DNA of 64,000 nt from Terriglobales bacterium (GTDB lineage Bacteria > Acidobacteriota > Terriglobia > Terriglobales > Acidobacteriaceae), in assembly GCA_025935035.1 (NCBI GenBank), contig JAICWB010000001.1, positions 11,834 through 75,833 on the forward strand, read 5' to 3'. The notes beneath the pieces are model-generated. The model saw only the letters and a program-made list of their open reading frames with translations, was not told where the DNA came from and ran no database searches. Within the stretch, counting starts at the first letter, position 1. Every line of letters begins with the position of its first letter. A program made the position numbers and the translations under genes. Shown here in pieces: positions 47,464 to 62,274 of this stretch.

Positions 47464-47651
47464 TGCTAACTGCCTCCAAAGCCTCTAATGCCGCTCAATC
47501 TCATTGCGAGTGGGTCATTATCCCCGCCACTGCGCATAGTTCACTCGGCCTTTTTCCCGGTATCCAGTTGCATTTGTTGATACCCAGGACCTGGTTCCAT
47601 TTGGGGTTTCCCCAGTGAACGCACGATTGCTGAATGTTCAGTGAAGACATA

Positions 47652-47667
47652 TGCACGGTAGTTGCCA
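47652..47667 (-). promoter_or_regulatory. Candidate sigma-54 promoter for the Che1 operon
   Basis: The minus-strand sequence TGGCAACTACCGTGCA has the correct GG-N10-GC spacing (consensus TGGCAC-N5-TTGCW). It lies about 190 nt upstream of the MCP start at 47463. Confidence 0.35.
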
Positions 47668-47912
47668 AGTGCGCCGATGCTCGGCCTGTATTAGTAAACG
47701 TCCATTAGTCAGCTACTTACGCAATATCATTGAATCCTGCTGTGTAGGATAAGGCCGATTTTGAAGGCGGCATCTTGAGATTGTGTCTCACTATGAAACA
47801 GTGCCGGAATGTTACCTTCGTACCCTGTTCCGATCATCAATATCCTTGACTCATATTGAGATTCCGAACTATTGTCATCCCCTCTACCCGTGTTTCTTCA
47901 ACGACTTAAGGA

Positions 47913-50234
47913 GTGGGATTGAAAACGCCGGAACAAGAATCCAGCGCAGCGCTGTCTCGCGCGCAGGCTATTACCGAAATGGCGTTGGAGCTGGGCGTCT
48001 CACTCACCATCCCTGACCTATTGCAAGTCGTCTCACGCAGTTGTCTGAAGATGTTTCGACCGGCGGCGGTGCTCATCGCGCTGTCTCACAATCGTTCCCC
48101 GGAAGCGGTTCTGCTTGCCACCGGGCAGCAAGTTATCTCCGAACGCAAGTCTCTCGCCCGTTTTGATCAGGTGCTCGCGGATTTTCGCATCAAATCCACC
48201 GGCTCGATGGACTCCGTTGCCGCTAGTGACGTGTTAGGCCCTGATCTTATGCAGGGGCTTCAATGGTCAAAGTGCGCGATCGCCCGCATTGATGACAGCA
48301 ACGGACAACCGTTGGCCATGGTTTGCCTGGCGGACCCTGTCGAGGTTGACCAGGCGCTGTCGGCGGCGTTTTTGCGCCTCGTTTCTACGGCATTGGAGAA
48401 TTGCCGTCTTTTCTCGCAGATCACCCAGGCCAGCAAGCAGTGGGCTGAGATATTCGATTCGCTATCTGATTTCGTGGTTCTTCACGATGAGCAACACCGC
48501 GTGATGCGCGTGAATCGCGCGCTAGCTGATTTTATTGGCTCTCGGCCTCCGGAACTCATTGGCATTCATATGCGCGATTTACTGTCCAAAGGGAAAAATT
48601 CCGGCCTCCAGCCGTGCCCTTTCTGTTCGCAGAGCGCCCAAGGTGACGAATTTCGCCACCCTGCGTTGGACCGCTTTTATCTTTTGTCCACCTCGCGCGT
48701 GCGCGGCGCATTGAACGAAAGCTCGCAGACGATACACGTTCTCCGCGACATCACCGATCGTCGCGAAGCCGAGCGCCGCTATCAGCAATTATTTGACAAC
48801 GTACAGGAAGGTGTCTTTTTCTCCACTCCGGCAGGTCGTTTCCTCGAGGTCAATGACGCTCTTGTCACCATGCTTGGATATCGCAGCAAAAAGGAGTTGC
48901 TGGCCATTGATATTCCCACGCAGCTTTACTTGTCTGTCGATGACCGGATTCGCACTCAACACGCCATGGCGCCCACCGGGGAGCTGAAACAGAAAGAGAC
49001 TCACTTCCGCCGTAAGGACGGCTCGCTCATGCCGGCACTGGTCAACTCTTTCGCGGTTCGAAACACCGCCGGTGAAGTGGTGCAATATCGCGGCATGATC
49101 TTTGACATGAGCGAGATCAAGCGCTTCCAGACGCAATTGCAGCGCGAGCGCGATTTCAATCTGCAGATTCTTAACAATACGCAGAACATGATCCTCGTCG
49201 CCGACACTGCCGGCCTCGTCAGCTATGCGAATAGGCGTTGTTTCGTTCCGCAGGCTTACGGCAATACCGAGCTTGTCGGTCACAAGATCTCGAGCCTCGT
49301 CGAGCCTGCGGACCGTGAGTCATGGGATTGCGCCTTTGACATGGCGCTACAGGGCCAGCCGGTCGACAATCTGGAAGCGCAAATGATTCTCGGCGATGGC
49401 GCTGTTGGTCTCTTCTCCGTGAACCTGAGTCCCATGCGCGACCAAGCGGACCTGGTCACAAGCGTAGTCATCGTCATGACGGACATCACCGAGGCCGCCT
49501 TAATACAAGCGAAACTGATGAATACCGAAAAGCTCGCCGCAGTCGGCCAGTTGGTCTCGGGCGTAGCCCATGAAGTGAACAATCCCCTCACTGCCATCAT
49601 GGGCTTCGCTGACCTGATGCTTGAGAATCCAGAATTGCCGCAATTCGCGCACCAGGATCTGCAAGTCATCATGAAGGAAGCTGAGCGAACGAAGGAAATA
49701 GTTCAAAATCTTCTGAGCTTTGCCCGGCAGACTCCGCCACACCGTACCAACGTAGATGTGAACGCCGTTCTTCGCCGCACGCTCGCTTTGCGGGCATATG
49801 ACCTATCGAGTCATGGCGTCGAGATCGTCGAAGATTTCGCCAACGACCTGCCGCAAACTGTTGGCGATGAGCAGCAACTGGTTCAAGTGTTCCTGAACAT
49901 CCTCAACAACGCCTATGACGCGGTCATCGAGACAAGCAGCAAAGGCCGTATCCAGATCTCCACGTCACTCGCCGGCGCGAATGTTGTCGTCGAGTTCAAA
50001 GATAACGGGCCTGGGGTAAGTAATATCGAAAAGATATTTGATCCTTTCTTCACCACGAAACCTGTAGGCAAGGGAACTGGGCTTGGACTCAGCATCTGCT
50101 ACGGCGTGATCCGTCAGCACGGAGGCGAAGTGCATTGTCAAAACAATGCGAATGAAGCGGGCGCAACATTCATCATCAAACTGCCGATTCAGCCGAAGGC
50201 CGCCGCAGCCACTGTCGCGAGGGCCACGGCATGA
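47913..50234 (+). CDS. Cytoplasmic multi-sensor histidine kinase (GAF-like + PAS repeats + HisKA + HATPase)
   Basis: No TM segments. The N-terminal region is GAF-like and there are at least 2 PAS blocks (..RYQQLFDNVQEGVFF.., ..NLQILNNTQNMILVAD..). H-box SGVAHEVNNPLTAI. ATPase motifs NILNNAYDA, DNGPGV, GKGTGLGLS. The likely start is TTG at 47919, 5 nt after AAGGAG, rather than GTG at 47913. Confidence 0.85.
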   Translation: MGLKTPEQESSAALSRAQAITEMALELGVSLTIPDLLQVVSRSCLKMFRPAAVLIALSHNRSPEAVLLATGQQVISERKSLARFDQVLADFRIKSTGSMDSVAASDVLGPDLMQGLQWSKCAIARIDDSNGQPLAMVCLADPVEVDQALSAAFLRLVSTALENCRLFSQITQASKQWAEIFDSLSDFVVLHDEQHRVMRVNRALADFIGSRPPELIGIHMRDLLSKGKNSGLQPCPFCSQSAQGDEFRHPALDRFYLLSTSRVRGALNESSQTIHVLRDITDRREAERRYQQLFDNVQEGVFFSTPAGRFLEVNDALVTMLGYRSKKELLAIDIPTQLYLSVDDRIRTQHAMAPTGELKQKETHFRRKDGSLMPALVNSFAVRNTAGEVVQYRGMIFDMSEIKRFQTQLQRERDFNLQILNNTQNMILVADTAGLVSYANRRCFVPQAYGNTELVGHKISSLVEPADRESWDCAFDMALQGQPVDNLEAQMILGDGAVGLFSVNLSPMRDQADLVTSVVIVMTDITEAALIQAKLMNTEKLAAVGQLVSGVAHEVNNPLTAIMGFADLMLENPELPQFAHQDLQVIMKEAERTKEIVQNLLSFARQTPPHRTNVDVNAVLRRTLALRAYDLSSHGVEIVEDFANDLPQTVGDEQQLVQVFLNILNNAYDAVIETSSKGRIQISTSLAGANVVVEFKDNGPGVSNIEKIFDPFFTTKPVGKGTGLGLSICYGVIRQHGGEVHCQNNANEAGATFIIKLPIQPKAAAATVARATA

Positions 50235-50620
50235 GCGCCGGTCCCGCACTGCAGCAATATCCGCTGCTTGTCATTGAGGATGAAGCCTCTGTGCAAGCCT
50301 TCTTGCGGGCTGCGCTATCTCGCAACGGGTTTCAATTCGAGATCGTCGGTTCCGGCGCCGAGGGCCTCGAGCGGCTCAAGACAGGCCAGTACTGCGGGGT
50401 GCTTTCAGACATGCGCACTCCCGGCGGCGTCGATGGTGCTGATGTTCACTCCTGGCTGCGCGCAAACCAGCCCAGCCTCATTCCGCGCATGCTCTTCATC
50501 ACCGGTGACATTGTGAATGAGGAGACCCGACGTGTGCTTCAGACTACCGGTGTGCCCTGTATCGAAAAACCATTTCGCGTGAACGAATTGATCAACGCGA
50601 TCAGAAAAGTGTTGGGATAG
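50231..50620 (+). CDS. Single-domain response regulator (receiver only)
   Basis: REC with intact acidic pocket (VIEDE) and phospho-Asp (VLSDMRTPGGVDG), T (ITGD) and K (EKPF). The start overlaps the kinase stop (ATGA). Confidence 0.8.
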   Translation: MSAGPALQQYPLLVIEDEASVQAFLRAALSRNGFQFEIVGSGAEGLERLKTGQYCGVLSDMRTPGGVDGADVHSWLRANQPSLIPRMLFITGDIVNEETRRVLQTTGVPCIEKPFRVNELINAIRKVLG

Positions 50621-50623
50621 ACC

Positions 50624-52012
50624 ATGGATGACATCAAAAGCCGTTTCCTCATCGTCGACGACGACAAAAACATCCGCCGCCTCTGCATGACGGTCGGCTC
50701 ATCACTAGGCCTCATCGTTACTGAGGCTGAGAGCACCGAGTCCGCGCTTAACCAGATCGAACTTCATTCGCCCGACATCATCCTGGCCGATCTCATGATG
50801 CCGCAGATGACAGGACTTGAATTCCTCGAGCAAGTGAAAAAGCTGTTGCCGCACACCGAAGTCGCCATCATGACCGGCCACGGCAGCATAGAAACGGCCG
50901 TGCGCGCTATGCGCATGGGCGCTTACGACTTCATCACCAAGCCGTTCCGCATCGAGGAATTGAAACTGCTTCTCACGCGCATGGAAGAGAAAGTAAAACT
51001 GGTCGCCGAGAACCAATTCCTACGTGAACGAGTCACCACCGACACGAATTTAAACGGCGTCACCGGCTCCTCTCCCAAGATCCAGGATGTGTTGCGCATG
51101 GTCGCGCGCCTCAAAGACACGCGCACTCCGGTGCTGATCACCGGCGAGAGCGGCACAGGCAAAGAACTCGTAGCGCGCGCCATCCACTATCGCGGCACGC
51201 TAGCCAAGCGTCCATTCGTTGCCGTGGACTGTGGCTCGCTCGTCCCCACGTTGATCGAAAGTGAGCTGTTCGGGTATGAGAAAGGCGCGTTCACTGGCGC
51301 GCTGCGTGGAAAAGAAGGTCTCTTTCAAGCCGCCAACGGCGGCACCATTTTCTTAGACGAGATCGGCGAGCTTCCGCTGGAGATGCAGGCCAAGCTCTTG
51401 CGCGTCCTGCAGGAAAAAGAAGTGCGCCCCGTCGGCAGCAACGAGCGAGTGAAGATTGACGTCCGCGTCATAGCCGCCACTAATCGCGATCTGGAGCAAG
51501 CCTACAAAGACGGAACCTTCCGCAAGGATCTCTTCTTCCGCCTCAACGTAGTTTCCATTCACACGCCGCCACTTCGTGAACGCAAGTCGGATATTCCATC
51601 CCTCGTGCAATGGTTCCTTGAGAAGAGTGCGCCTCAACGTGTAGTCCACGTTTCCACCCAAGCCATGAAGCTGATGCTCGACTACGACTGGCCAGGCAAC
51701 GTCCGTGAACTCGAAAATTGCGTCGAACGCGCGGTGGCGCTCGGTGCAGACAGCGTTCTAGACGTCGCCGATCTCACTCCCGCCATCCGTGCGGGACAGC
51801 CCGGCGTTCCCCAGATCGCGCTCGCCACAGCGAATACAACTTCGTCTGACCTCGAAGAACTCGAGCGGGAAACCATCCAACGCGTCTTCGATCAAGTCGG
51901 TGGGGACAAGACCGCTGCCGGAAAAATTCTGGGTATCAGCCGTGCCACGCTTTACCGCAAGTTGAAGCGTTACAACATCACCCAAGCCAAAGCCATGACA
52001 GCAACTGCCTAA
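50624..52012 (+). CDS. Sigma-54-dependent response regulator (NtrC family)
   Basis: REC (IVDDD.. ILADLMMPQMTG), Walker A GESGTGKE, GAFTGA (YEKGAFTGA), and a C-terminal Fis-type HTH (AAGKILGISRATLYRKLK). It starts 3 nt after the receiver gene. Confidence 0.9.
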   Translation: MDDIKSRFLIVDDDKNIRRLCMTVGSSLGLIVTEAESTESALNQIELHSPDIILADLMMPQMTGLEFLEQVKKLLPHTEVAIMTGHGSIETAVRAMRMGAYDFITKPFRIEELKLLLTRMEEKVKLVAENQFLRERVTTDTNLNGVTGSSPKIQDVLRMVARLKDTRTPVLITGESGTGKELVARAIHYRGTLAKRPFVAVDCGSLVPTLIESELFGYEKGAFTGALRGKEGLFQAANGGTIFLDEIGELPLEMQAKLLRVLQEKEVRPVGSNERVKIDVRVIAATNRDLEQAYKDGTFRKDLFFRLNVVSIHTPPLRERKSDIPSLVQWFLEKSAPQRVVHVSTQAMKLMLDYDWPGNVRELENCVERAVALGADSVLDVADLTPAIRAGQPGVPQIALATANTTSSDLEELERETIQRVFDQVGGDKTAAGKILGISRATLYRKLKRYNITQAKAMTATA

Positions 52013-52107
52013 GCCGCAAGGCTGAGACAGCCGTCTCATAGTGAGAAACGAGACGCTGCTCAAGCAATCACGGCCAGTAAAATCAGCAACTTACCGCTCA
52101 AAATATT

Positions 52108-52123
52108 TGGCTTATCGCTTGCA
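52108..52123 (+). promoter_or_regulatory. Sigma-54 (-24/-12) promoter
   Basis: TGGCTTATCGCTTGCA has GG (52109-10) and GC (52121-22) separated by exactly 10 nt. It matches 9 of the 11 specified positions of TGGCAC-N5-TTGCW. It lies 96 nt after the activator gene stop and 46 or 67 nt before the in-frame ATGs at 52170 and 52191. Confidence 0.6.
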
Positions 52124-52190
52124 TATCAACCTTCGGGGACATCTGCGCGCGTTCATCCGCCGAGATGTCATGCTGAAAAGAAAAGAGACT

Positions 52191-53657
52191 ATGAGCACAG
52201 CGACCGTCAATCTGACTGAAGTAGCTGCAATGTGGCGCAATGCGCGCCGCCTTTACCCGATCTATTCCGCGCTGAACCAGCAATCTGGTTACGGACTGCA
52301 GCCCTGCCGCGATCTCGAAAGCCCCATCGACCGGTCCGATCCGGAAGTCGTTGAACGCGTCAAAGATTGGCTGAAACAGGTCGACACCCGCATTGAAGTG
52401 CATCAGATCCGGCAGCTTTTACAGACCACTCACATTGCCACTGAAGATGGTTTGCGCGCTTTGTTGACTCGCGAATTGCGCAAGGAGCCAAAGGACAACA
52501 CCGTCCGCGACAAAGTCGACTACATGCTCGTGCAGTATTACGCCTTTTGCTCTCCGGACGACGCGCACGCCTCCACCATCGACTTCACCCATGTCTCTCA
52601 AGTTCTGCGGCCCGTCTTGGGCGAAGTCTCACGCGTGGTGCCGGAGTTCTGCAGCGAACTCGACAACATTCTGACCCAGCTCGACCATTGCGCCTCTCTC
52701 GGTGACTTACTCAACAAGAAGATCATTGACAAAGCCCGCGCCATGAAAGACCAGGCGGGCGCCGAATATTTCAAAGCATCGGTCCTTGTCGCTTACGCGC
52801 GATTCAATTTTCTTATGCGTCGTGGATTCTTCCGCCTCATGCACGCCGACCTGCATGCCATCCGCTTCGCACTTCATGCGATGGAAGGCCGCGGACAGCA
52901 CTCATGCGATTGCACCGCCGTCGGCCTTTCAGCCGACCAGAACTTCGCTGAACTGCGCGAGATCTGTCACGACTGGAAAAAGCCATTTCGCGCCGCCTAT
53001 TCGCTCGGCAATACCTTTGAGCAGTTGGTAAAGATTCGCGCGGCGGTTGAAACAGCAATGGCGAAGCCATTGCCGTCGCCAAAACCCATTGCTCCAATTG
53101 CACCGGTGGCAGCCGCAGCCGCGCCAGCCCCTCAAGTGGCAAAACCGGCGCCAGTCACTACTCCCGCGCCCGCCAAACCCGCAGCCCAGCCTTCCGCTCC
53201 ATTTGCTGTAGCGCCGCAGACGGTCAAAACCGCCGCTCCAGTCGCAAACGTGGGAAGCAATTCCGCGGTGGACGAATGCATCTCGCAGATTCATATCGCC
53301 GTCTCCACGATTCCGGTCAAGAACGCGGCGATGTGTTCTTTCGCTCTAAAAGGAACGAAGCTCATATTGGCCTCATGGGAAGTAGTTGCGTTCCAGAAGC
53401 CGAATAGCCCCGCAGCCATTCCGGTACAGCAAGCAGTCGCTTCGCGCGTGCTTCTGATTCAAGCAGTGGAAGCGCGCAAGCGCGGCGAAGCGGTCGATGT
53501 TCGCGCAGCTATCGCGCAAGCCCATAGCCAGGCCGCGCATCTCCAGGCTGAGATCGCCACTGCTAAAGATCGCAAAGACATTGATACCGCGGTCAACTTA
53601 TCGGCAACCGCCAAACGACTGCTCGCCTTGGTCGAGCAGGCAGAAAAGGGCAAATAG
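52191..53657 (+). CDS. Hypothetical protein, no recognisable domain (N-domain, Ala/Pro-rich linker, C-domain)
   Basis: Long ORF with coding-like composition. I chose ATG 52191 (or 52170) because the sigma-54 promoter lies inside the 5' extension of the track ORF. The A/P-rich linker is encoded at about 53070-53230. The C-terminus is helical. Confidence 0.65.
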   Translation: MSTATVNLTEVAAMWRNARRLYPIYSALNQQSGYGLQPCRDLESPIDRSDPEVVERVKDWLKQVDTRIEVHQIRQLLQTTHIATEDGLRALLTRELRKEPKDNTVRDKVDYMLVQYYAFCSPDDAHASTIDFTHVSQVLRPVLGEVSRVVPEFCSELDNILTQLDHCASLGDLLNKKIIDKARAMKDQAGAEYFKASVLVAYARFNFLMRRGFFRLMHADLHAIRFALHAMEGRGQHSCDCTAVGLSADQNFAELREICHDWKKPFRAAYSLGNTFEQLVKIRAAVETAMAKPLPSPKPIAPIAPVAAAAAPAPQVAKPAPVTTPAPAKPAAQPSAPFAVAPQTVKTAAPVANVGSNSAVDECISQIHIAVSTIPVKNAAMCSFALKGTKLILASWEVVAFQKPNSPAAIPVQQAVASRVLLIQAVEARKRGEAVDVRAAIAQAHSQAAHLQAEIATAKDRKDIDTAVNLSATAKRLLALVEQAEKGK

Positions 53658-53661: not shown

Positions 53662-54435
53662 ATGTTCTCTGACGACAGGTTCATGCAAGACCGCGTAGTG
53701 CTGGTGCTAGCGCAGTCGCCTGCCTTTGCTCAAGCTTTAGTCGCTCGTTGGCAGAACATTTCATCCGCGCCGGCATTCACCGTCATCACCTCAGCGGATG
53801 CCACTTCTCACAACGGCAGCCAGTACAAAGCCTGCCATATGGTCATCGTCGAAGCAGCCGCTATCCACTCGCATCGAAATCTATTGCAACGCCTCGACGC
53901 GGTCGGCACGCCGGTCATCTGCGCATTGCCCATCGCGGCTTCTCGTAACGCTCGTTCGAACTCGCACGGCCCGGAACCGATCGTTTTCTCGCCGACGGCC
54001 GACCAACTCCGCGCAGATTTTCCGCGCATGATCACGCTCAACCTCATCGACCGCGAGTCCGGCCTCGACACGTTAGTCACTCTCGCGATCGAAGTCCTGA
54101 AACGTATCGACGCTGTGCTTCGCGCCAAGAAGGCAGAATCCGACGCCGGCTCGCAATCCGCTCAACTCGCGCTGGGTAAATACGTTGCCGAATCGATGCA
54201 CGGTTTCAACAATGCGCTTACCGCCGTGCTCGGCAATGCCGAACTATTAATGTTGGAAACCTCAAGCCTTACGCCTCAGATGCAGGAAGAGATTGAGGCC
54301 ATTCATTCCAACGCCATTCGCCTGCACGAGATGATGCAACGCTTCTCGTCATTGGAAGCCGAGATCGAGGCCGGACGCAAACATGGTAAGAGTGCCGCTG
54401 CGGGAGGCACTCAGGCTTACCTTTCAGGTACCTAA
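53662..54435 (+). CDS. HisKA (DHp)-only protein with a degenerate receiver-like N-domain; candidate histidine phosphotransferase
   Basis: 257 aa from ATG 53662, which is 4 nt after the upstream stop. C-terminal H-box LGKYVAESMHGFNNALTAVLGNAELLMLE, with the His codon at 54199-54201. A second DHp helix follows, then only about 20 more residues, so no HATPase domain. The N-terminal ~150 aa have an alternating beta/alpha pattern (VVLVLAQSP.., HMVIVEAAA.., TPVICALP). Confidence 0.65.
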   Translation: MFSDDRFMQDRVVLVLAQSPAFAQALVARWQNISSAPAFTVITSADATSHNGSQYKACHMVIVEAAAIHSHRNLLQRLDAVGTPVICALPIAASRNARSNSHGPEPIVFSPTADQLRADFPRMITLNLIDRESGLDTLVTLAIEVLKRIDAVLRAKKAESDAGSQSAQLALGKYVAESMHGFNNALTAVLGNAELLMLETSSLTPQMQEEIEAIHSNAIRLHEMMQRFSSLEAEIEAGRKHGKSAAAGGTQAYLSGT

Positions 54436-54457
54436 GCTGTTCTCAGCAGAAGATTTA

Positions 54458-54486
54458 CAACTGCCAAGTGCTAGGCTTGGCAGTTG
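54458..54486 (+). other. Perfect 11-bp inverted repeat / hairpin
   Basis: CAACTGCCAAG (54458-68) and CTTGGCAGTTG (54476-86) with a 7-nt loop and no following T-run. It lies between the DHp-only gene and the PilH-like gene. Confidence 0.5.
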
Positions 54487-54506
54487 CGGAAAGTAGCAAT
54501 GGGTTC

Positions 54507-54866
54507 ATGAAAAAGATTCTTATCTGTGACGATTCGATAGCTGAGGTCAAACTCATGCAGTCCGTGCTTGAGAAAGCCGGATACTGCCCGGTCGTGACCC
54601 ACGATTCCACGCGCATCGAGCAGATGATCGACGTACAGCGGCCCAACCTCATCCTCTTGGATGTCGTCATGCCGCAACGCAATGGATTTCAAGTCTGCCG
54701 TGACCTTAAAGGACATGCAGAATACAGCCGCATCCCGGTCGTGGTGGTCAGTTCCAAAGACCAGGAGAGCGACAAGTTTTGGGCAAAGCAACAAGGCGCG
54801 GACGGCTACGTGGTAAAGCCCTTTACGCCAGAACAATTGTTGGGCGCGATAAAAGTTTTGGTTTGA
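54507..54866 (+). CDS. PilH-like single-domain CheY-family response regulator
   Basis: 120 aa from the internal ATG (MKKILICDDS). Intact REC residues (DD, LLDVVMP, VVSS, VKPF). The block SSKDQESDKFWAKQQGADGYVVKPF resembles the PilH/PixH-type signature as I recall it (TKDQETDKVWGKRQGARDYLTKP). Confidence 0.8.
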   Translation: MKKILICDDSIAEVKLMQSVLEKAGYCPVVTHDSTRIEQMIDVQRPNLILLDVVMPQRNGFQVCRDLKGHAEYSRIPVVVVSSKDQESDKFWAKQQGADGYVVKPFTPEQLLGAIKVLV

Positions 54867-54910
54867 AAAAGACGATCAGTGAGGCCACGCAATTGGGCAA
54901 GGTTAGTCGG

Positions 54911-54978
54911 GGCACGGCTTAGTAAGGGCACGGCTTCAGCCGTGCCGTAACGGGCCAATAAATGGGGGCTTTAGCCCC
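54911..54978. repeat. REP-like intergenic palindromic element (direct repeat plus two hairpins)
   Basis: GGCACGGCTT occurs twice (54911-20 and 54927-36). The second copy forms the hairpin GGCACGGC-ttca-GCCGTGCC (54927-46). A second hairpin is GGGGCT-tt-AGCCCC (54965-78). Confidence 0.4.
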
Positions 54979-54993
54979 AGCGAAGAAACGCAA

Positions 54994-55536
54994 ATGGATT
55001 ACACAGCAGAGCAGGCAAAATTAACGGCGAAACTGGCGGAAGCCGCACAATCCGCCACAGGAGCGGCCGAACTCGGCGTTCCCGCTGAAGATCGTGCCGC
55101 GGAGATCCAGTACTGCATCTTCCGCGCCGGGCGCGAACGCTTCTGCCTGCCTGTTCTTGACGTGGAAGAGGTAGTCGAATGGCCCAGCGTCACTGACCTC
55201 CCGCTCTCGCCCAGCTTCCTGATGGGGATCTTCAATCTGCGCGGCAGCATTGTCCCCGTGATCGACATCGCGTTCACTGAAGGACGCCGCGCCGATCTTC
55301 CGCCTAAGCATTGCGTTGTGGCCATCAGAAAAGGTGCGGAAGCTGGCGAGTTCCTTCGGCTCGGGATCGCCGCAGACGAGGTCATCGGTACCTATAACAC
55401 TAGTGAACCTTTGCTGGTGGATGAAGCTCCGGCAGACGTACCGCATTGTTGCGGCATGCTGCGTCACGATGACCGCTTGGCATTGGCTTTGAGTTTGAAA
55501 CGGTTGACGGAATCTTTTCCCGTGCCGGTGATTTAG
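54994..55536 (+). CDS. cheW: CheW-family coupling protein (PilI-like position)
   Basis: CheW domain ([53 protein letters not shown]) preceded by a ~35-aa Ala-rich extension. Confidence 0.85.
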
Positions 55537-55565
55537 ATTTTTCGGTTTTGTCTTGGAGGCTGTAT

Positions 55566-56996
55566 ATGAAGGGTCGGTTGAGTTCGACCATTTGGATGTT
55601 AGTCACGTTCAACGCGATAGCGCTTTTCGGCGTGATCGTGTTGGCGTATATCGCGGGCGAGAAATCGCGTTTGCCGATCGCCAATGCTCTGCAGAGTGAC
55701 GGTGCCACGTTCTTTTTGTCGGCCGTCGTCGCGGGCCTCGCCATGGCTTTCATTGTTCTCTTTGTCCTTGGCAACCGCGTGATCAAGCCAGTGAAGGAAC
55801 TCACTGACTTCTCTGAGAAGCTCGCGGCCGGTGACTACAAGGCCAAGGCAGACGTCGATTCGCAAGACGACTTCGCCCTCATCGCGGAGAACTTCAACTC
55901 CAGCAGTGAGCGCGTCTCTCGTGCCGTCACCAACCAGGAAGCGCAGGAGTCGCTGCAGAAGAGCGTCACTGAGTTCTTGACCATCGTCAGCCAGATCGCC
56001 CGCGGCGATTTGACGTTGCGCGGCAATGTGACCAATGACGCGCTCGGCAACGTAGTCGATTCCGTCAACTACATGCTTGATAACTTCACGCGCGTGCTCG
56101 AACGTGTTCGCAAGAGCGCCATTGACGTCGCCTCCAACGCCAATGAGATCTTGCTCTCGTCTGAAGACATGTCCGCCGGCGCTTCGCAACAGGACCAGGA
56201 GATCACCAATACCTCGTCCGCCGTAGAAGAGCTCACCGTCTCCATGAAGCAAGTCTCGAACAACGCGGAAGCTTCGGCGGAAGCCGCACGCCGCGCACTC
56301 GATGCCGCAGAATCCGGCAACCGCGCCGTGCGTGACACCCTCGAAGGTATGCAACGCATTCGCGCCTCCGTGCAAGCCACCGCAAAGAAGATCAAGTCAC
56401 TCGGCGATCGTTCGCTGGAGATCAGCGAGATCATCAATGTTATTAATGACATCACTGAACAGACCAACCTGCTCGCGCTCAACGCCGCCATCGAAGCAGC
56501 GCGCGCCGGTGAAGCGGGCCGCGGTTTCGCCGTCGTTGCCGACGAAGTCCGCAAGCTGGCAGAACACTCCCGCACCGCTACCAAAGACATTGCTGCACTG
56601 ATCAAAGCCATCCAGGCCGAAACGAACGAAGCCGTTGTCGTGATGGAAGAGGGGACTAAGGAAGTGGAAGTCGGCGCCAAACTGGCAGACCAGGCCGGTA
56701 AAGCGTTGGAAGCTATCTCCAGCGTCGTCCGTCAATCCGCCGAACTTGTACAGGAGATATCACTCGCCTCGAAACAACAGGTGCGCGGTACTGAAGGCGT
56801 AGCTAATGCTATGCAGATCATCTCCAACATCACGCGGCAGACTTCACAGGGGACTCGTCAGACGGCCCGCACCGTGGAACACATGGTGAAGTTATCTGAG
56901 CAGTTGAATGAAGCGCTGTCGCAATTCCGCATCGCTTCATCCGGTCCGACAGAGATCCGTTCGGCCGCCGAAGTAGCTGCCGCGGGTCGCAGATAG
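55566..56996 (+). CDS. Methyl-accepting chemotaxis protein with minimal periplasmic loop (PilJ-like position)
   Basis: Two TM helices are separated by only about 20 residues ([19 protein letters not shown]), followed by HAMP. Invariant hairpin [39 protein letters not shown]. The start ATG at 55566 lies 6 nt after GGAGG; the track start is TTG at 55548. Confidence 0.9.
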
Positions 56997-57004
56997 TTCG
57001 TAAC

Positions 57005-57027
57005 CGATGCCGATGATGTCGGCATCG
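57005..57027 (+). other. Intergenic hairpin
   Basis: CGATGCCGA (57005-13) and TCGGCATCG (57019-27) with a 5-nt loop and no T-run. It lies between the MCP and cheR genes. Confidence 0.45.
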
Positions 57028-57061
57028 CAGTCAATATTCGCCACTTGATGCTAGGTGCTAA

Positions 57062-57943
57062 GTGCTAAAGGCTACAAATTCCGACGCCACGCTGAGTGAT
57101 CACGAGCTCTCAGAGATGCGCTCGCTTTTAGAGCAGCGCTCCGGGATCCTCTTTGACACTTCGCGTGAACGCTTCTTTTCAGCACGCGTGCGGGAGCACA
57201 TGCGCGAGAAGAAGCTCGCCCACGGCGCCGAATTGCTGCGTCTCGTGCGGGGCTCGAATGTCGAATATGACCGGCTGTTAGAGCGCCTCCTGACGCAGGA
57301 GACTTCGTTCAACCGCTATCCCGCCATTTTCTCTGCGCTGGAAAAGCGCGTGCTCCCGGAAATGCACACCAAGAAATTCTGGGAAGACCCGCGCTCGCTT
57401 CGCATCTGGAGTGCCGGCTGCGCCTCTGGTGAAGAGCCTTACACCATCGCCATCAGCGTGGCGGACGCGTTCGAACAAGCCGAGACATGGAACGTACAGA
57501 TACTCGCCACCGACATAAGTCGCCAGGCGCTCGACGTAGCCGAGAAGGGCGTGTACCCCCGCCGGGAATTAGAAACATTAAAGCCCCACCAATTCAACAA
57601 CTACTTCACCCAGCAGGGCGAACACACCTTTAAGGTGAAACCGAAGATTCGCAACATGGTCACCTTCGCGCCATTGAACTTGGCGCAGGCCGTGTACATG
57701 GGCAAGTTTGACTGCATCTTCTGCATGAACGTGATGATCTATTTCACTGAGGAGCGTCGCGCAGCGTTGATCCAGCGTTTCTTCGATTACCTCGAGCCCG
57801 GCGGATACCTATTTCTCGGCCACGCGGAATCGGTCGCCAAAGCCGGGGTCGGCTTCGAACCCATCGTCGTCGGCGATTCGTTGATCTACCAGAAACCAAT
57901 GACCGCGGCCAAACGTGCCGCCGTAACACAGGAGCGTCTGTGA
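57062..57943 (+). CDS. cheR: Chemotaxis methyltransferase CheR (PilK-like position)
   Basis: N-terminal helical domain (LSDHELSEMRSLLEQRSGILFD) and SAM motif IWSAGCASGEEPYTIA. GTG start. Confidence 0.85.
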   Translation: MLKATNSDATLSDHELSEMRSLLEQRSGILFDTSRERFFSARVREHMREKKLAHGAELLRLVRGSNVEYDRLLERLLTQETSFNRYPAIFSALEKRVLPEMHTKKFWEDPRSLRIWSAGCASGEEPYTIAISVADAFEQAETWNVQILATDISRQALDVAEKGVYPRRELETLKPHQFNNYFTQQGEHTFKVKPKIRNMVTFAPLNLAQAVYMGKFDCIFCMNVMIYFTEERRAALIQRFFDYLEPGGYLFLGHAESVAKAGVGFEPIVVGDSLIYQKPMTAAKRAAVTQERL

Positions 57944-60900
57944 GCGCGCCCGGACAAGAATTCGTCGAAGTATTTCTGACCGAAGCGTCAGAGCACCTGC
58001 AGTTCCTGCGGGAATACTCAGGCATTCTCCTGGATCCGTATCCCGTCCCAGAAGATGTGGAGCGTCTCTACATAGCCGCACACACGCTCTCGGGAACCTC
58101 TGCCTCGTATCAGTTCCCACTGTTCTCTGAAGTCGCAAGTAAACTGGCACACATCTTCCAGTACGCCATGAACGCCACCGTCGGCGCCGATGCAGCCGGC
58201 CCTCTGGTCGAGTTCATCTCGGAAGCAATCGCTGTCCTCGAGTCGGACCTGATCATGGTCAGCACCAACGCCATCGAGTCAGAAGAGGACATCAACAACT
58301 TCAAGGCGAAGTATCCCTTCGCATTCCAGGCACCGGCGCCGCCGCCGTTGGTTGAAGAGCCGCATTACGTGCATGAAGCCGAGGGCGACGTGCTCGAAGC
58401 TCACGCAACTCCACAAGCTGCGCCCGTCGCTGCTCCTGCGCCTGAGATTCACATCGCGCCGCTCGACCCCGACCCGGAAATCCCCGCCGAGATCCTCGAA
58501 TTCTTCGTACCCGAGGCCGAAGAGCATCTCCAGATCATCCAAGACTGCTTGCTCTCGCTTGAAACCCACGCCAACGCGGAAGACATCAATCGTCTCTTCC
58601 GCGCCATGCATACGGTGAAGGGAAGCGCGGCGCAAGTCGGATTGCAGCGCATAGCCCGCGTCGCACATCGCGCCGAAGATCTTGTCGGACGCTTGCGCGA
58701 CGGCCTGCTTCATCCCAGCGCCGAGATCGTAGACATCTGCCTCGAATCGGTCGATTGCCTCAAGCGCTTCCTCTACAACCAGTGGAGCGACGAAATCACG
58801 CTGCAATCGTCAGTCAAATCTCTGCTCACGCGGATCGCGCGCCTCGCTCCGGAAGAAGCTGATGGCGAAGCCGCACCGGCAGAACAGGTTGAAGTTGCCT
58901 CGCAAACCATCCACGAACGGGCCGTCGCGCAAGCCGCAGCACCCATCGCCGAGGTCCTTCATGAAGAAGTCCAGGCTGCACCCGCACCAGAGCATGCCGC
59001 CGAAACTGAACACAAAGAAGAAGATGAACTAGTAGCCGGACTCACCTCCGCCAAGCGTGACATCACCGCTGTAGCGCAATCGAAATCTGTCCGCATTGGC
59101 CTAGAACGCCTAGACCGCATGATGAACGCCGTCGGCGAGTTAGTCATCAACCGCACGCGTATGCTTGGCCGTGTTGCCGAACTTGAGCGCCTGGCGGACG
59201 TGCTCAACTTCTCCAAAGGTCGCATGGCGGACAAGGTCACCGAGTTCCAGGAGAAGTACGAATTCAGCCGCCTCACCTCGCAGCCGCAGATGCCGCAGTA
59301 CCCGGCGCAATATCTCGGGGGCGGTGAATATCCATTCCGCGGCGGCTACTCCAGCTACTCCGGCGGATACGATCCCTCACTCGCCGAATTCAGCGAACTT
59401 GAGATGGACCGGTATGACGATTTCAGCATCCTCTCGCGTTCATTGACTGAGATCTCGGCCGACATCACCGAAGTCCTCACGCAGCTAGACGGCTTCGTCC
59501 GCCGCGTTGATTCTGACATCGACGAGTTCACCAAACTCGCGCACCGCCTGCAAGACGAGATCACCCAGGCACGCATGGTGCCCATCGGCAATTTGTACGC
59601 CCGCCTGTCCCGTACCGTCCGCGACGCCGCTAAAGCCGCCAACAAGCGAGTAGAACTAGCGCTATCGGGCGCTGACACCGAACTCGACAACAACATCATC
59701 CAACAGATCTCCGATCCGCTGATTCACCTCGTCCGCAACGCCGTGGCACACGGCCTCGAACGCACAGATGAGCGGTACCACGCAGGCAAAGGCGACCACG
59801 GCAATGTCGCTGTCCGCGCCTACCATCGCGGCAACCACATATATATAGAGGTAGAAGACGACGGTCGCGGTATCGACTACGCGAAAGTCCGCGCCACCGC
59901 CGTTGAAGCCGGCCTCGTAAGCTTCGAAGACGCGGCAGCACTCGGCGAGCGCGATCTGCTCGAGTTCTTGTTCCATCCCGGCTTCTCCACCGCACCTCGC
60001 AAGACCGAACTCGCCGGACGCGGTGTAGGCCTTGACGTAGTCCGCGCCAACTTAAAATCGCTCAACGGCGAGATCGACATCGAAACCTCGAAGGGCCACG
60101 GCACGCGCTTTACTCTGAAGGTGCCGCTCACCCTAATCATCTCGCAAGCGCTCTTCGTGCGGTGCGGCAAACAGACCTTCGCACTCCCGCTCGCCTTCAT
60201 CGAAGAGATTCGCCGCTTAAACGCCAACGACATCGAAGAAGTCGGCGGCAAGCTGCTTACAAAAGTCCGCGATGTAGTCACCGAAGTCGTTCGTCTCGAC
60301 GATCATCTCGGCCTCGCAAAGGTCGAGCCCGTCAACGGCTACTACCGTATGGTCATCGCCAATGTCGGTCAGCGCCAGGTCGGCATCATCGTCGAAGAAG
60401 TCCTGCGCAAAGACGAAATAGTCATCAAGAGCCTCGGCGAATACCTGCGCAACGTGAAGATGTTCCCCGGTTCCACCATCGCGCCAGACGGCAGCCTCAT
60501 CCTGCTCATCGACATCAATCGCCTCATCGCCGGCGAACAAGTCGAACGTCGTCCGCTGGCCATGGCCAACATCGCGAAGGCCGCGCGCCTCTTCGCCCCG
60601 GGCGCAGCCGCAGTCGCCGCCGGACACATCCCCGAAGCCGCCATCGACGAAGTCGGCCCGGAAAAAGTCGTGGTCCTCGCAGACGACTCCATCTCCGTCC
60701 GCAAATTTGTAGGACGCATGCTGGAAAAAGCCGGCTATCGCGTGAAACTCGCCTCAGACGGCCTGGAAGCCTTAGAGATCGCCACCGCCATGAAAGTCGA
60801 TCTAGTGGTCACAGATCTCGAGATGCCGCGCACCAACGGATACGAACTCATCGCGCACCTGAAACAAAACACGCAAACACGCAATCTGCCGGTCATGGTC

Positions 60901-61068
60901 GTCACATCACGCGCAGGCGCAAAACACAAAGACCGTGCATTGAAAGAAGGCGCATCGGCATTCATGACCAAGCCGGTGCAGGACGAACAATTTGTAGCCG
61001 CCGTGGCCGCATTGATCGGCCCGGCAATGGGAGCGTCGCTGGCACATCACGCCACGACCACACACTAG
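57940..61068 (+). CDS. cheA: Hybrid CheA-type histidine kinase with two Hpt domains and a C-terminal receiver (ChpA-like)
   Basis: Hpt1 reads AAHTLSGTSAS (His codon 58081-83). Hpt2 reads AMHTVKGSAAQ (His codon 58609-11). N box HLVRNAVAHGLE, G1 DDGRGID, G2 GRGVGLDVV, then a CheW-like domain. The C-terminal REC has intact DD and phospho-Asp (VLADDS ... LVVTDLEMPRTNG). It overlaps cheR by 4 nt. Confidence 0.9.
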   Translation: MSAPGQEFVEVFLTEASEHLQFLREYSGILLDPYPVPEDVERLYIAAHTLSGTSASYQFPLFSEVASKLAHIFQYAMNATVGADAAGPLVEFISEAIAVLESDLIMVSTNAIESEEDINNFKAKYPFAFQAPAPPPLVEEPHYVHEAEGDVLEAHATPQAAPVAAPAPEIHIAPLDPDPEIPAEILEFFVPEAEEHLQIIQDCLLSLETHANAEDINRLFRAMHTVKGSAAQVGLQRIARVAHRAEDLVGRLRDGLLHPSAEIVDICLESVDCLKRFLYNQWSDEITLQSSVKSLLTRIARLAPEEADGEAAPAEQVEVASQTIHERAVAQAAAPIAEVLHEEVQAAPAPEHAAETEHKEEDELVAGLTSAKRDITAVAQSKSVRIGLERLDRMMNAVGELVINRTRMLGRVAELERLADVLNFSKGRMADKVTEFQEKYEFSRLTSQPQMPQYPAQYLGGGEYPFRGGYSSYSGGYDPSLAEFSELEMDRYDDFSILSRSLTEISADITEVLTQLDGFVRRVDSDIDEFTKLAHRLQDEITQARMVPIGNLYARLSRTVRDAAKAANKRVELALSGADTELDNNIIQQISDPLIHLVRNAVAHGLERTDERYHAGKGDHGNVAVRAYHRGNHIYIEVEDDGRGIDYAKVRATAVEAGLVSFEDAAALGERDLLEFLFHPGFSTAPRKTELAGRGVGLDVVRANLKSLNGEIDIETSKGHGTRFTLKVPLTLIISQALFVRCGKQTFALPLAFIEEIRRLNANDIEEVGGKLLTKVRDVVTEVVRLDDHLGLAKVEPVNGYYRMVIANVGQRQVGIIVEEVLRKDEIVIKSLGEYLRNVKMFPGSTIAPDGSLILLIDINRLIAGEQVERRPLAMANIAKAARLFAPGAAAVAAGHIPEAAIDEVGPEKVVVLADDSISVRKFVGRMLEKAGYRVKLASDGLEALEIATAMKVDLVVTDLEMPRTNGYELIAHLKQNTQTRNLPVMVVTSRAGAKHKDRALKEGASAFMTKPVQDEQFVAAVAALIGPAMGASLAHHATTTH

Positions 61069-61080
61069 GACTTCGGAACG

Positions 61081-62274
61081 ATGGAAGCAGGGAAGAGAAT
61101 TCGGGTTTTAGTCGCAGACGACTCGGCGTTCATGCGCAAGGTTTTAGTAAGCATCTTAAGCGCAGATCCGCAATTTGAAGTCGCCGGCGAAGCGCGCGAT
61201 GGCCGCGATGCCGTCGCCCAGTCCGAAGCCCTGTCTCCAGACGTCATCACCATGGACATCAACATGCCTCACATGGACGGCCTCCAGGCCACCGAAGTGA
61301 TCATGTCCACCAAACCCAAACCCATCGTGATCGTCAGCTCGGAATCGCGCGATGGCGCAGACATCACTCTGAAAGCCCTCGAGCTCGGTGCGATCGACTT
61401 CGTCGCCAAGCCATCCAGCGGTGTTGATCTCGACATGAACACCATTCGCGAAGAGTTGGTTCGCAAGTTGCGCATGGCCTCGAAGGTCCGAGTTGTCCGC
61501 ACAGCGTCACGTTCGAAGCTCGCGCAAGAGATCGCCACCTCCGCCCCTCGCACCGAGCCCGCGCTCCCTTCTGGATACGCCATCAATGCGGCCAACAATG
61601 GTTCAGGCATTCAAGCGCCCGCCCTCAGAAAGATCTCCAGCGTCTTCAATGATGCCACTTCGCTGAAACGTGGCGACGGCAAATTCCCCATCGTGGTCAT
61701 CGCTGCTTCCACCGGCGGTCCAGCTACATTGATGAAGCTGATTCCAAGTTTCCCCAAAGAATTTCCCGGCGCTGTTCTACTCGTGCAGCACATGCCCGCT
61801 AGCTTCACATCGCAGTTCGCGCAACAGCTGGCAGACATCGCCGCTATAAAAGTAAAAGAGGCGTCACCCGGTGAGATCATCTCGCCCGGCAACCTTTATC
61901 TATGCCCCGGTTCGTCGCACATGAAGGTCACCGCCACCGGACGCCTCACGCTCGACGAAGGTGCGCGCATCAACGGCTATCGTCCCTGCGCCGACGTCAC
62001 CCTCACCACCGCCGCCGAATTCATAGGCAGCCTCGGCATCGGCGTGATCCTTACCGGCATGGGTAATGACGGGTGCCAGGGCGCGCAAGCCATGAAAGCT
62101 GCCGGCGCACACGTCATCGCGCAGGACGAAGCCACCTCCATCATCTTCGGCATGAACGCTGAAGCCATCAAGACCGGCGCAGTGGATCAGATCTTGCCGC
62201 TCGACTCTATCTATCAATCGATCGAGAAGCGCATGCTCTACGTCTGCGGCGCAGCGCGGGTAGGTGCATCATGA
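61081..62274 (+). CDS. cheB: Protein-glutamate methylesterase CheB (ChpB-like position)
   Basis: REC (VLVADDS.. VITMDINMPHMDG), a ~70-aa linker, then the methylesterase domain (AASTGGP, VQHMPASFT, TGMGNDGC). Confidence 0.9.
   Translation: MEAGKRIRVLVADDSAFMRKVLVSILSADPQFEVAGEARDGRDAVAQSEALSPDVITMDINMPHMDGLQATEVIMSTKPKPIVIVSSESRDGADITLKALELGAIDFVAKPSSGVDLDMNTIREELVRKLRMASKVRVVRTASRSKLAQEIATSAPRTEPALPSGYAINAANNGSGIQAPALRKISSVFNDATSLKRGDGKFPIVVIAASTGGPATLMKLIPSFPKEFPGAVLLVQHMPASFTSQFAQQLADIAAIKVKEASPGEIISPGNLYLCPGSSHMKVTATGRLTLDEGARINGYRPCADVTLTTAAEFIGSLGIGVILTGMGNDGCQGAQAMKAAGAHVIAQDEATSIIFGMNAEAIKTGAVDQILPLDSIYQSIEKRMLYVCGAARVGAS

What the first reader, a model, noticed from the sequence alone, without database searches (positions are those of the whole stretch)
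52108..52123. Near-consensus sigma-54 promoter placed directly after the sigma-54 activator gene
TGGCTTATCGCTTGCA has the obligatory GG-N10-GC geometry and a TTGCA -12 element. It sits in the 178-bp gap after the NtrC-type gene (stop 52012) and upstream of the in-frame ATGs at 52170 and 52191.

Two things follow. First, the unknown gene, the DHp-only gene and possibly the whole second che cluster would be expressed only when the adjacent kinase/activator pair is on. Second, the track ORF start at 52041 is wrong, because the promoter lies inside that extension. Sigma-54 control of a chemosensory cluster through a dedicated, physically linked activator is unusual.
Basis: partly seen in the sequence, partly recalled or inferred. 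Interest (0 to 1): 0.6.

Follow-up and report, generated by a model that had tools for sequence, protein, structure and literature searches.

The report
Conserved sigma-54 promoter with enhancer sites
The flagged 16-base motif is very probably a real sigma-54 promoter: soil acidobacteria (Terriglobales) keep it together with upstream activator-binding repeats and a DNA-bending-protein site, so it is a well-built but ordinary example of a known kind of switch.

Summary
The motif TGGCTTATCGCTTGCA is at 52108-52123 (+), with correct GG-N10-GC spacing. Alone it is only moderate evidence: 9 of 12 consensus positions, rank 81 in the genome, and a chance of about 0.002 for this gap.

Comparison settles it. 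A TTGG-N9-TGC motif lies upstream of the orthologous operon in 79 of 80 Terriglobales species. Only the -24 and -12 bases are conserved. Upstream lie repeated TGAGAC/GTCTCA half-sites (window 52023-52054), 34-fold enriched and spaced in about 11-nt steps from the promoter. An IHF-like site (52081-52093) sits between them. The genome encodes sigma-54, IHF-like proteins and an intact NtrC-type activator next door.

The gene starts at ATG 52191, not 52041 or 52170.

The same half-sites precede a second, divergent sigma-54 promoter (47652-47668, minus strand) that faces the first che cluster. The activator operon is therefore flanked by both of its targets.

The conserved target of this promoter is a short operon: a small gene (lost here), the unknown gene and the DHp gene. 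The second che cluster follows only in two of the genera sampled, so its co-transcription is unproven.

Sigma-54 control of che operons has precedents.

The parts
52107..52123 (+). Sigma-54 (-24/-12) promoter TTGGCTTATCGCTTGCA. GG is at 52109-10 (-25/-24) and GC at 52121-22 (-13/-12). The predicted transcription start is near 52134.
   Evidence: Searches give the sequence, spacing and PWM score. Searches show an orthologous motif in 79/80 species, with information content concentrated on TTTGG and TGCA. One search shows the motif absent in G011, which lacks the target operon.
52023..52054 (.). Upstream activator sequence, read as the enhancer for the adjacent bEBP. Half-sites are TGAGAC 52023-28, GTCTCA 52033-38, TGAGAa 52042-47 and GAGAC 52050-54, about -111 to -80 from the predicted start.
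   Evidence: One search shows it conserved in all 18 family loci. In one search half-sites reach 10.8/kb in the 200 nt upstream against 0.32/kb elsewhere, and 73/79 loci have at least 2 exact half-sites. Searches show the pattern in G000 only in the two gaps flanking the bEBP operon.
52081..52093 (+). IHF-like site AATCAGCAACTTA (WATCAR-N4-TTR), 26 nt before the promoter motif.
   Evidence: One search finds WATCA-N5-TTR in 40/79 loci at fixed distances of 26-27 or 36-38 nt, against a background of 0.002 per 75 nt. Searches find two IHF-like genes in G000.
50624..52012 (+). NtrC-type bacterial enhancer-binding protein (REC, AAA+ sigma-54 interaction domain with GAFTGA, HTH_8). Inferred to be the cognate activator.
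   Evidence: Searches give the domains and the GAFTGA motif. In one search it falls below all NCBIfam equivalog cut-offs. One search shows orthologues co-occurring with the target operon.
47913..50620 (+). Cytoplasmic PAS histidine kinase (47913-50234) and single-domain receiver (50231-50620), co-operonic with the bEBP.
   Evidence: One search gives the Pfam domains. One search shows the gene order conserved in 9 of the 10 long relatives' loci; the tenth locus (G015) starts only at the receiver gene.
52191..53657 (+). First gene after the promoter: a 488-aa protein of unknown family. Its start is corrected to ATG 52191.
   Evidence: Searches show orthologue alignments beginning at MSTA.VNL, with frame-breaking indels upstream. 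Searches find no Pfam or NCBIfam match. Searches give a confident all-alpha model with no PDB match.
53662..54435 (+). Second gene: receiver-like N-terminal domain plus a HisKA (DHp) domain with no ATPase domain.
   Evidence: One search gives the HisKA match. One search shows it following the unknown gene in all the relatives fetched there.
54507..63984 (+). Second che cluster (CheY-like REC, CheW, MCP, CheR, hybrid CheA-REC, CheB, CheW-like genes, REC-DUF4388). It may be co-transcribed. It is a lineage-specific appendix.
   Evidence: Searches give the domains. In one search it is present after the DHp gene only in G000, G001, G002 and G016. One search finds no che2-type CheA in 5 other genera. 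Searches find no further plus-strand sigma-54 or sigma-70 candidate and no T-tailed terminator in the gaps.
47652..47668 (-). Second sigma-54 promoter, TTGGCAACTACCGTGCA on the minus strand, 188 nt before the MCP start of che cluster 1 (genes 47463 down to 39938).
   Evidence: Searches find an equivalent CTGGCA-N6-TTGCA motif facing the MCP in 11/11 relatives. Searches show that che cluster 1 comprises MCP, CheW, CheR, CheA, CheB, CheY and CheX.
47771..47807 (.). Enhancer for the divergent promoter: TGAGAttgtGTCTCActaTGAAAC on the plus strand. It carries the same half-sites as 52023-54.
   Evidence: In one search this is the best UAS-PWM hit in the whole genome (21.1 bits). One search shows GTCTCA-N3-TGAGA plus a further TGAGAC in all relatives.
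47846..47875 (+). Sigma-70-like promoter (TTGACT-18-TATTGT) for the kinase/receiver/bEBP operon. Its -35 region overlaps a conserved TCTCA-N3-TGAGT-type palindrome, so autoregulation is possible.
   Evidence: One search gives the match. One search shows TCTCAAnnTGAGTCAAG conserved in the relatives.

Best explanation
TTGGCTTATCGCTTGCA (52107-52123) is a functional sigma-54 promoter with the classic three-part architecture.

Inferred mechanism: the cytoplasmic PAS kinase (47913-50234) phosphorylates the adjacent NtrC-type activator (50624-52012). The lone receiver (50231-50620) probably competes for the phosphate. The activator oligomerises on the TGAGAC/GTCTCA half-site array at 52023-52054. 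An IHF-like protein bends the DNA at 52081-52093. The activator's GAFTGA loops then contact the sigma-54 holoenzyme bound at -24/-12, and ATP hydrolysis opens the promoter. Transcription should start near 52134.

The transcript encodes the unknown protein (from ATG 52191) and the DHp-only protein. In this genus it may run on into the second che cluster.

The same activator most likely also drives a second, divergent sigma-54 promoter at 47652-47668 (minus strand) for che cluster 1. It may also repress its own sigma-70-type promoter at 47846.

Shown here: the sequence elements, their conservation and spacing, and the presence of the protein parts. Inferred: which activator binds, the transcription start, and how far the transcript extends.
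For: - Geometry and score: GG-N10-GC spacing is correct, the PWM score is 13.9/20.1 bits, and chance in this gap is about 0.002.
- Conservation: a TTGG-N9-TGC motif precedes the orthologous operon in 18/18 family loci and 79/80 species loci. High information content is confined to TTTGG and TGCA.
- The motif tracks the target genes. It stays with them when the activator gene lies 7.7 kb away (G015). It persists in G022, which lost only the unknown gene. It is absent in G011, which lost the whole operon but kept the activator.
- Enhancer: half-sites are 34-fold enriched in the 200 nt upstream, and 73/79 loci have at least 2 exact copies. Enhancer-to-promoter distances cluster at 74, 86, 97, 108 and 121 nt, which fits helical phasing.
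- IHF-like site: it sits at fixed distances in 40/79 loci, and IHF-like genes are present.
- Protein parts: rpoN is present with an intact RpoN box. The activator has REC, AAA+ with GAFTGA, and HTH_8.
- Specificity: in this genome the enhancer pattern occurs only in the two gaps flanking the activator operon.
- Co-occurrence: the unknown gene never occurs without the activator orthologue in the 40 relatives searched.
- Non-coding status: indels that are not multiples of 3 between G000 and G004, and orthologue alignments that start at 52191.
Against:
- The -24 element deviates from consensus (TGGCTTA against TGGCACG).
- 80 sites in the genome score higher, many of them inside genes. Genome-wide, sites of this score are only about 2-fold enriched upstream of genes with my crude gene model.
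- The link between activator and enhancer rests on adjacency and co-occurrence. The genome has at least 13 other bEBPs.
- The IHF-like proteins fall below the NCBIfam equivalog cut-offs.
- The relatives are phylogenetically related, so the counts overstate independence.
Confidence: 0.88

Rival explanations
1. The promoter is real but is activated by a different enhancer-binding protein, one of at least 13 in the genome, and not by the adjacent NtrC-type gene. Adjacency would then be historical.
For: The genome has at least 13 full-length bEBP genes. In G015 the orthologous activator lies 7.7 kb from the promoter. No binding experiment exists.
Against: The same half-sites occur on both sides of the activator operon and overlap its own sigma-70-like promoter. 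They occur nowhere else credible in the genome. The gene order is conserved across the family. The target gene never occurs without the activator orthologue. The HTH_8 region is highly conserved, like the half-site.
Confidence: 0.08
2. The inverted repeat at 52023-52054 is mainly an RNA hairpin that terminates or attenuates the activator operon. The downstream genes would then be expressed by read-through, or from an unrecognised sigma-70 promoter. The GG-N10-GC motif would be a conserved site for something other than sigma-54.
For: The 52005-52075 RNA folds at -25.9 kcal/mol, z = -3.0. The region lies directly after a stop codon.
Against: No U-tract follows the hairpin. Across species it is the half-site sequence that is conserved, not merely the pairing. 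The same half-sites occur in the divergent gap at 47771-47807, where no gene ends. The -24/-12 bases, the exact 10-nt spacing and the phased enhancer distance are what sigma-54 promoters require.
Confidence: 0.03
3. The motif is a chance match with no function.
For: 80 sites in the genome score higher, many of them inside coding regions. The core pattern is expected about twice per 64 kb.
Against: Chance in this gap on this strand is about 0.002. The motif is conserved in 79/80 species at protein identities down to about 40%, while the flanking bases are not conserved.
Confidence: 0.01

Closest known systems
NtrB/NtrC with glnAp2, and IHF-assisted sigma-54 promoters such as nifH and glnHp2 (enterobacteria, Klebsiella). 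Comparison from established knowledge, not tested here.
   Same: A two-component kinase phosphorylates a REC-AAA+-HTH_8 activator. Multiple activator sites lie about 80-140 bp upstream of a -24/-12 promoter. An IHF bend lies between them. The activator is encoded next to its target, and its own operon carries activator sites.
   Different: The half-site is TGAGAC, not TGCACC-N5-GGTGCA. The targets are a che operon and an operon of unknown proteins, not nitrogen assimilation genes. The promoter lies immediately downstream of the activator gene. The activator is below all NCBIfam equivalog cut-offs.
Sigma-54-dependent chemosensory operons: Rhodobacter sphaeroides (Martin et al. 2006 J Bacteriol 188:7932, cited in PMC7277832 and PMC2577667) and predicted sites before Geobacter che clusters (PMC2577667)
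   Same: A che gene cluster is placed under a -24/-12 promoter in a bacterium with several che clusters.
   Different: In R. sphaeroides the control runs through the flagellar FleQ/FleT hierarchy and a dedicated RpoN paralogue (PMC7277832). Here a dedicated kinase/receiver/activator operon sits between its two target promoters, with its own defined enhancer motif.
Myxococcus xanthus CrdS/CrdA with the Che3 cluster (PMC3147164), and NmpRSTU (PMC6211767)
   Same: An NtrB-like kinase and an NtrC-like activator are encoded beside a che cluster. NmpRSTU likewise combines a kinase, a phosphate-sink receiver and an NtrC-like regulator, and NmpR binds upstream of its own operon.
   Different: In Che3 the activator is the output of the che pathway, which has no CheY. 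Here che cluster 1 has its own CheY and CheX, and the sequence evidence points to the activator controlling transcription of the che genes. Phosphotransfer between CheA and this activator was not tested.
PilS/PilR with the pilA promoter (Pseudomonas, Myxococcus, Geobacter). Comparison from established knowledge.
   Same: A two-component bEBP activates a sigma-54 promoter of a neighbouring motility-related gene through tandem short repeats. The PilR sites contain (C/G)TGTC, which resembles GTCTC.
   Different: No pilin gene lies here. The half-site differs by one base and is arranged as inverted plus direct repeats. Orthology to PilR is not supported.

Membership tests
Sigma-54 (RpoN) dependent -24/-12 promoter | GG and GC dinucleotides separated by exactly 10 nt | tested here: met
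   GG is at 52109-10 and GC at 52121-22. The same spacing occurs in 79/80 orthologous loci.
Sigma-54 (RpoN) dependent -24/-12 promoter | Match to the extended consensus TGGCACG-N4-TTGCW | tested here: met
   9 of 12 positions match: TGGC and TTGCA match, ACG does not. The score is 13.9 of 20.1 bits with my own approximate PWM, rank 81 in the genome. This is a moderate match, not near-perfect.
Sigma-54 (RpoN) dependent -24/-12 promoter | The genome encodes sigma-54 | tested here: met
   Sigma54_DBD scores 204.7 bits on contig C45. The RpoN box RRTVAKYR is present.
Sigma-54 (RpoN) dependent -24/-12 promoter | An enhancer-binding AAA+ activator with GAFTGA is available, with binding sites about 70-150 bp upstream | tested here: met
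   The adjacent gene has Sigma54_activat at 235.9 bits, GAFTGA and HTH_8. The half-site array lies 53-84 nt before the motif and is conserved, enriched and phased. Binding itself was not tested.
Sigma-54 (RpoN) dependent -24/-12 promoter | Lies in non-coding DNA upstream of, and in the same orientation as, a gene | tested here: met
   It lies 68 nt before the conserved ATG 52191. The 52041 extension is broken by frame-shifting indels in G004.
Sigma-54 (RpoN) dependent -24/-12 promoter | Transcription starts about 12 nt after the GC and depends on rpoN and the activator | not testable with these tools
IHF-assisted sigma-54 promoter | A WATCAA-N4-TTR site between enhancer and promoter, and IHF encoded in the genome | tested here: inconclusive
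   AATCAGCAACTTA (12 of 13 positions) is at 52081-93, and similar sites sit at fixed distances in 40/79 loci. Two IHF-like proteins are present but below the equivalog cut-offs, for example 108.9 against 115 bits.
NtrC-family response-regulator bEBP | REC domain, sigma-54 interaction AAA+ domain and a C-terminal Fis-type HTH | tested here: met
   Pfam gives Response_reg 100.3, Sigma54_activat 235.9, AAA_lid_14 83 and HTH_8 45 bits. It is not an equivalog of AtoC, NtrC, ZraR or the others.
Che3/CrdA-type system (bEBP as the output of a che pathway) | The che cluster lacks CheY, and CheA acts on the NtrC-like regulator | tested here: not met
   Che cluster 1 encodes CheY and CheX, and cluster 2 has a CheY-like REC. 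Phosphotransfer was not testable.

The most novel reading that the evidence does not exclude
The two sigma-54 promoters and their shared TGAGAC enhancer define a module found widely in Terriglobales. In it, a cytoplasmic PAS kinase/activator switches on a complete che pathway together with a conserved operon of three uncharacterised proteins. These are a small beta-rich protein (lost in this genome), an all-alpha protein with no match among solved PDB structures, and a receiver-like/DHp protein without an ATPase domain. That trio would be a new accessory phosphorelay that couples or feeds back between the two-component system and the chemosensory arrays. In most relatives it would be further gated by an undescribed structured leader RNA.
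Probability: 0.2. Interest if true: 0.6.

Novelty: new member of a known kind. Interest (0 to 1): 0.38.

Why it matters
Acidobacteriota are abundant in soil, and their gene regulation is almost unstudied. This finding gives a concrete, testable regulon for one activator:

- a defined promoter
- an enhancer half-site (TGAGAC)
- an IHF-like site
- two target operons

Relatives of the first target gene are encoded in hundreds of Terriglobales species genomes (567 tblastn-confirmed stretches), and the promoter motif was checked and found in 79 of the 80 best loci.

It corrects a gene start. It shows that at least one complete chemosensory pathway in this lineage is expressed conditionally and not constitutively. 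It also flags a conserved operon of unknown proteins as the activator's core target. The mechanism itself is textbook, so the value lies in annotation and regulon mapping, not in a new principle.

Tried and rejected
- Generic PWM enrichment: my crude gene model gave only about 2-fold enrichment of similar-scoring sites upstream of genes. This was too weak to decide alone, so I turned to comparative analysis.
- Third enhancer hit: C96:1541 scored 15.7 bits, but it lies inside a gene with no sigma-54 site nearby, so I rejected it as chance.
- TonB_C-like gene: in relatives it follows the che1-facing promoter. The paralogue at C346 has neither enhancer nor promoter upstream.
- Separate promoter for che cluster 2: I looked in the 54435-54507 and 54866-54994 gaps. 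No sigma-54 or sigma-70 candidate was found and nothing is conserved there. There are only hairpins without T-tails.
- che2 in other genera: I wanted to ask whether it carries its own enhancer, but no che2-type CheA was found in the five genomes checked.
- Unknown protein: no match in Pfam, NCBIfam, or Foldseek against the PDB.
- Conserved leader RNA in relatives: no Rfam match.
- Literature: Martin et al. 2006 (PMC1636300) is not held, so it is cited through secondary sources. Searches for sigma-54 with chemotaxis in Acidobacteria found nothing specific.

Full report
**Observation**

The window reads TGGCTTATCGCTTGCA at 52108-52123 on the plus strand. GG (52109-10) and GC (52121-22) are 10 nt apart, and the -12 element is TTGCA.

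- The motif lies in the gap between the stop of an NtrC-type gene (TAA 52010-12) and the next gene.
- Against TGGCACG-N4-TTGCW it matches 9 of 12 positions.
- The core pattern TGGC-N7-TTGCW occurs 4 times in the window against 2.0 expected.
- With my own approximation of the published consensus as a PWM, it scores 13.9 of 20.1 bits. It ranks 81st in the 2.98-Mb, 354-contig genome, and many higher hits lie inside genes.
- Sites of this score are only about 2-fold denser upstream of genes than inside them, using my crude gene model.
- Chance for such a score on the sense strand of this particular 178-nt gap is about 0.002.

**Context**

Pfam gives this gene order on the plus strand:

- PAS histidine kinase (47913-50234)
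- lone receiver (50231-50620)
- REC-AAA+-HTH_8 activator (50624-52012)
- a protein with no family
- a HisKA-only protein (53662-54435)
- a CheY-like receiver
- CheW, MCP, CheR, hybrid CheA-REC and CheB, followed by two CheW-like genes and a REC-DUF4388 gene

The activator carries GAFTGA and intact Walker motifs.

Divergently, on the minus strand, lies a complete che cluster 1: MCP, CheW, CheR, CheA, CheB, CheY and CheX.

The genome encodes sigma-54 with an RpoN box and at least 13 bEBPs. It also encodes two IHF-like proteins and one HU-like protein.

The organism is a Terriglobales acidobacterium, known here from metagenome-assembled genomes.

**Comparative test of the promoter**

Orthologues of the unknown gene occur in 17 of 24 genomes of the same family. 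Wherever the fetched upstream flank was long enough to show it (15 of the 17 relatives' loci), an orthologue of the same activator lies upstream.

In all 18 loci, a TTGG(C/T)-N7-(T/G)TGCA motif lies upstream. A wider scan of species genomes gave 567 tblastn-confirmed stretches encoding a relative. In the 80 best loci, 79 have the motif at a consistent position. An information profile over 77 distinct sequences is high only at TTTGG and TGCA. That is the signature of a -24/-12 element, not of general sequence similarity.

In most relatives the motif lies about 450-580 nt before the unknown gene. This is because a conserved gene of about 115-130 aa with no Pfam match intervenes. That small gene is missing in this genome, G004 and G001, where the motif sits 84-96 nt before the unknown gene.

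The motif follows the target genes, not the activator gene:

- In G015 the activator is 7.7 kb away, yet enhancer and promoter stay with the operon.
- In G022 only the unknown gene is lost and the promoter remains.
- In G011 the whole operon is absent and so is the promoter, while the activator persists.

**Enhancer and IHF-like site**

All loci carry TGAGAC-N3-5-GTCTCA-N3-TGAGAC about 60-110 nt upstream of the motif. In the window the half-sites are TGAGAC 52023-28, GTCTCA 52033-38, TGAGAa 52042-47 and GAGAC 52050-54.

- Exact half-sites reach 10.8 per kb in the 200 nt upstream of the motif, against 0.32 per kb in the rest of the loci.
- 73 of 79 loci have at least two exact half-sites.
- The distance from GTYTCA-N3-TGAGA to the motif falls into classes at 74-75, 85-88, 97-99, 105-111 and 121 nt, in steps of about 11 nt. 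This is what face-of-the-helix constraints predict. The window's distance is 74.
- Between enhancer and promoter, WATCA-N5-TTR occurs in 40 of 79 loci at 26-27 or 36-38 nt from the motif, against a background of 0.002 per 75 nt. The window has AATCAGCAACTTA at 52081-93.
- A three-way DNA alignment with the two closest relatives that also lack the small gene (G004 and G001) shows islands of identity exactly at these three elements and at the ATG.

In this genome the enhancer pattern is confined to the two gaps flanking the activator operon. A third PWM hit is intragenic with no promoter nearby and is taken as chance.

**Second promoter**

The other enhancer copy lies at 47771-47807. About 110 nt from it, on the minus strand, is TTGGCAACTACCGTGCA (47652-47668), 188 nt before the MCP start of che cluster 1.

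Eleven of eleven relatives have a closer-to-consensus CTGGCA-N6-TTGCA there, preceded by GTCTCA-N3-TGAGA and a further TGAGAC. In most relatives a secreted TonB_C-like small gene is the first gene of that operon. It is missing here.

A sigma-70-like promoter, TTGACT-18-TATTGT at 47846, precedes the kinase gene. Its -35 region overlaps a conserved TCTCA-N3-TGAGT palindrome, which suggests autoregulation.

**Gene start**

The longest ORF begins at GTG 52041, inside the enhancer. The public gene call is 495 aa, which corresponds to ATG 52170.

Orthologue alignments begin at MSTA.VNL, which is ATG 52191. In G004, indels of 1 and 2 nt break the upstream frame, and the counterpart of ATG 52170 is out of frame. 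The start is therefore 52191, and the predicted 5' leader is about 57 nt.

**Extent of the transcript**

The conserved unit is the small gene, the unknown gene and the DHp gene. In G010 the next genes are on the opposite strand.

Among the genomes sampled, che cluster 2 follows only in genera g1 and g13. No che2-type CheA was found in five other genera.

In the window the gaps of 72 and 128 nt hold hairpins without T-tails. They hold no recognisable promoter and nothing conserved. Co-transcription is plausible but not shown.

There is also no terminator between the activator gene and the promoter. The enhancer palindrome folds as RNA (-25.9 kcal/mol) but lacks a U-tract. Read-through may therefore give basal expression.

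**Co-occurrence**

Activator orthologues (at least 67% identity) occur in 19 of the 40 relatives. All 17 relatives with the unknown gene are among them. The remaining 21 genomes have only paralogues of 56% identity or less.

**What is known**

The architecture is the textbook NtrC-type one (established knowledge). Precedents for the particular features are as follows.

- Sigma-54 control of che operons is published for R. sphaeroides and predicted for Geobacter.
- An NtrC-like regulator beside a che cluster is known from M. xanthus CrdS/CrdA-Che3.
- A kinase/sink-receiver/NtrC-like set is known from NmpRSTU.
- No paper on this system in Acidobacteria was found.

This is a new member of a known kind.

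**Limits**

No binding data exist. The PWM is my own approximation. The relatives are not statistically independent.

Noticed in passing
L055-L111 (for example L067:3042-3120); not present in the window: In about 50 of 75 relatives that keep the small gene, the leader just after the sigma-54 promoter holds a conserved element of about 60 nt, GATGCGGTCCGGGTGCC..CTAACCGG..GGGGACCCAGGCCGCGTC, with an invariant CTAACCGG loop. RNAalifold on 23 diverse copies gives 16 pairs, 10 of them with compensatory changes. There is no Rfam match. It is a candidate for an undescribed cis-regulatory RNA.
   Followed up: partly
window 52191-53060 (residues 1-290 of the unknown protein): The conserved N-terminal domain gives a confident all-alpha AlphaFold model (pLDDT 87, pTM 0.83) from an 18-sequence alignment. 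Foldseek finds no PDB match (best E 0.6, TM at most 0.21), and Pfam and NCBIfam find no family. Relatives are confined to Terriglobales-type metagenome sequences and are all annotated as hypothetical.
   Followed up: partly
L005:1051-1444, L019 and others; missing between window 52123 and 52191: A gene of about 115-130 aa (..LAKFFP.A.PVRIPV...TVIEFGT..EVLF....PLEF.D...L.N.DG.LD.EA.VVA.QY..G..A.AARF...V.NWI.K) is the first gene behind the promoter in most relatives. It has been lost in G000, G004 and G001. It has no Pfam match and no copy elsewhere in this 85%-complete genome.
   Followed up: partly
window 47846-47875: The sigma-70-like promoter of the kinase/receiver/activator operon has its -35 hexamer embedded in a conserved TCTCA-N3-TGAGTCAAG palindrome that resembles the enhancer half-sites. 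This suggests negative autoregulation by the activator.
   Followed up: partly
window 47464-47652, compared with L022-L031: Most relatives have a secreted TonB_C-domain gene of 110-125 aa between the che1-facing sigma-54 promoter and the MCP gene. It is absent in the window and in G017, which leaves a 178-nt leader. A 56%-identical paralogue at contig C346 has no such promoter.
   Followed up: yes
window 54900-54985: The gap before the second-cluster CheW holds two G+C-rich hairpins without T-tails (GGCACGGCttcaGCCGTGCC and GGGGCtttaGCCCC) and a direct repeat of GGCACGGCTT. They are not conserved in G001, G002 or G016. Their function is unknown; they may be an attenuator or a repeat element.
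   Followed up: no
G000 contig C67:3271-3287 (-), next to the bEBP gene at C67:3891-4394 (-): A second strong sigma-54-like site lies directly downstream of, and on the same strand as, another bEBP gene (ATGGCAAAGAGATTGCT, 15.9 bits). The 'promoter right after its activator gene' layout therefore recurs in this genome.
   Followed up: no
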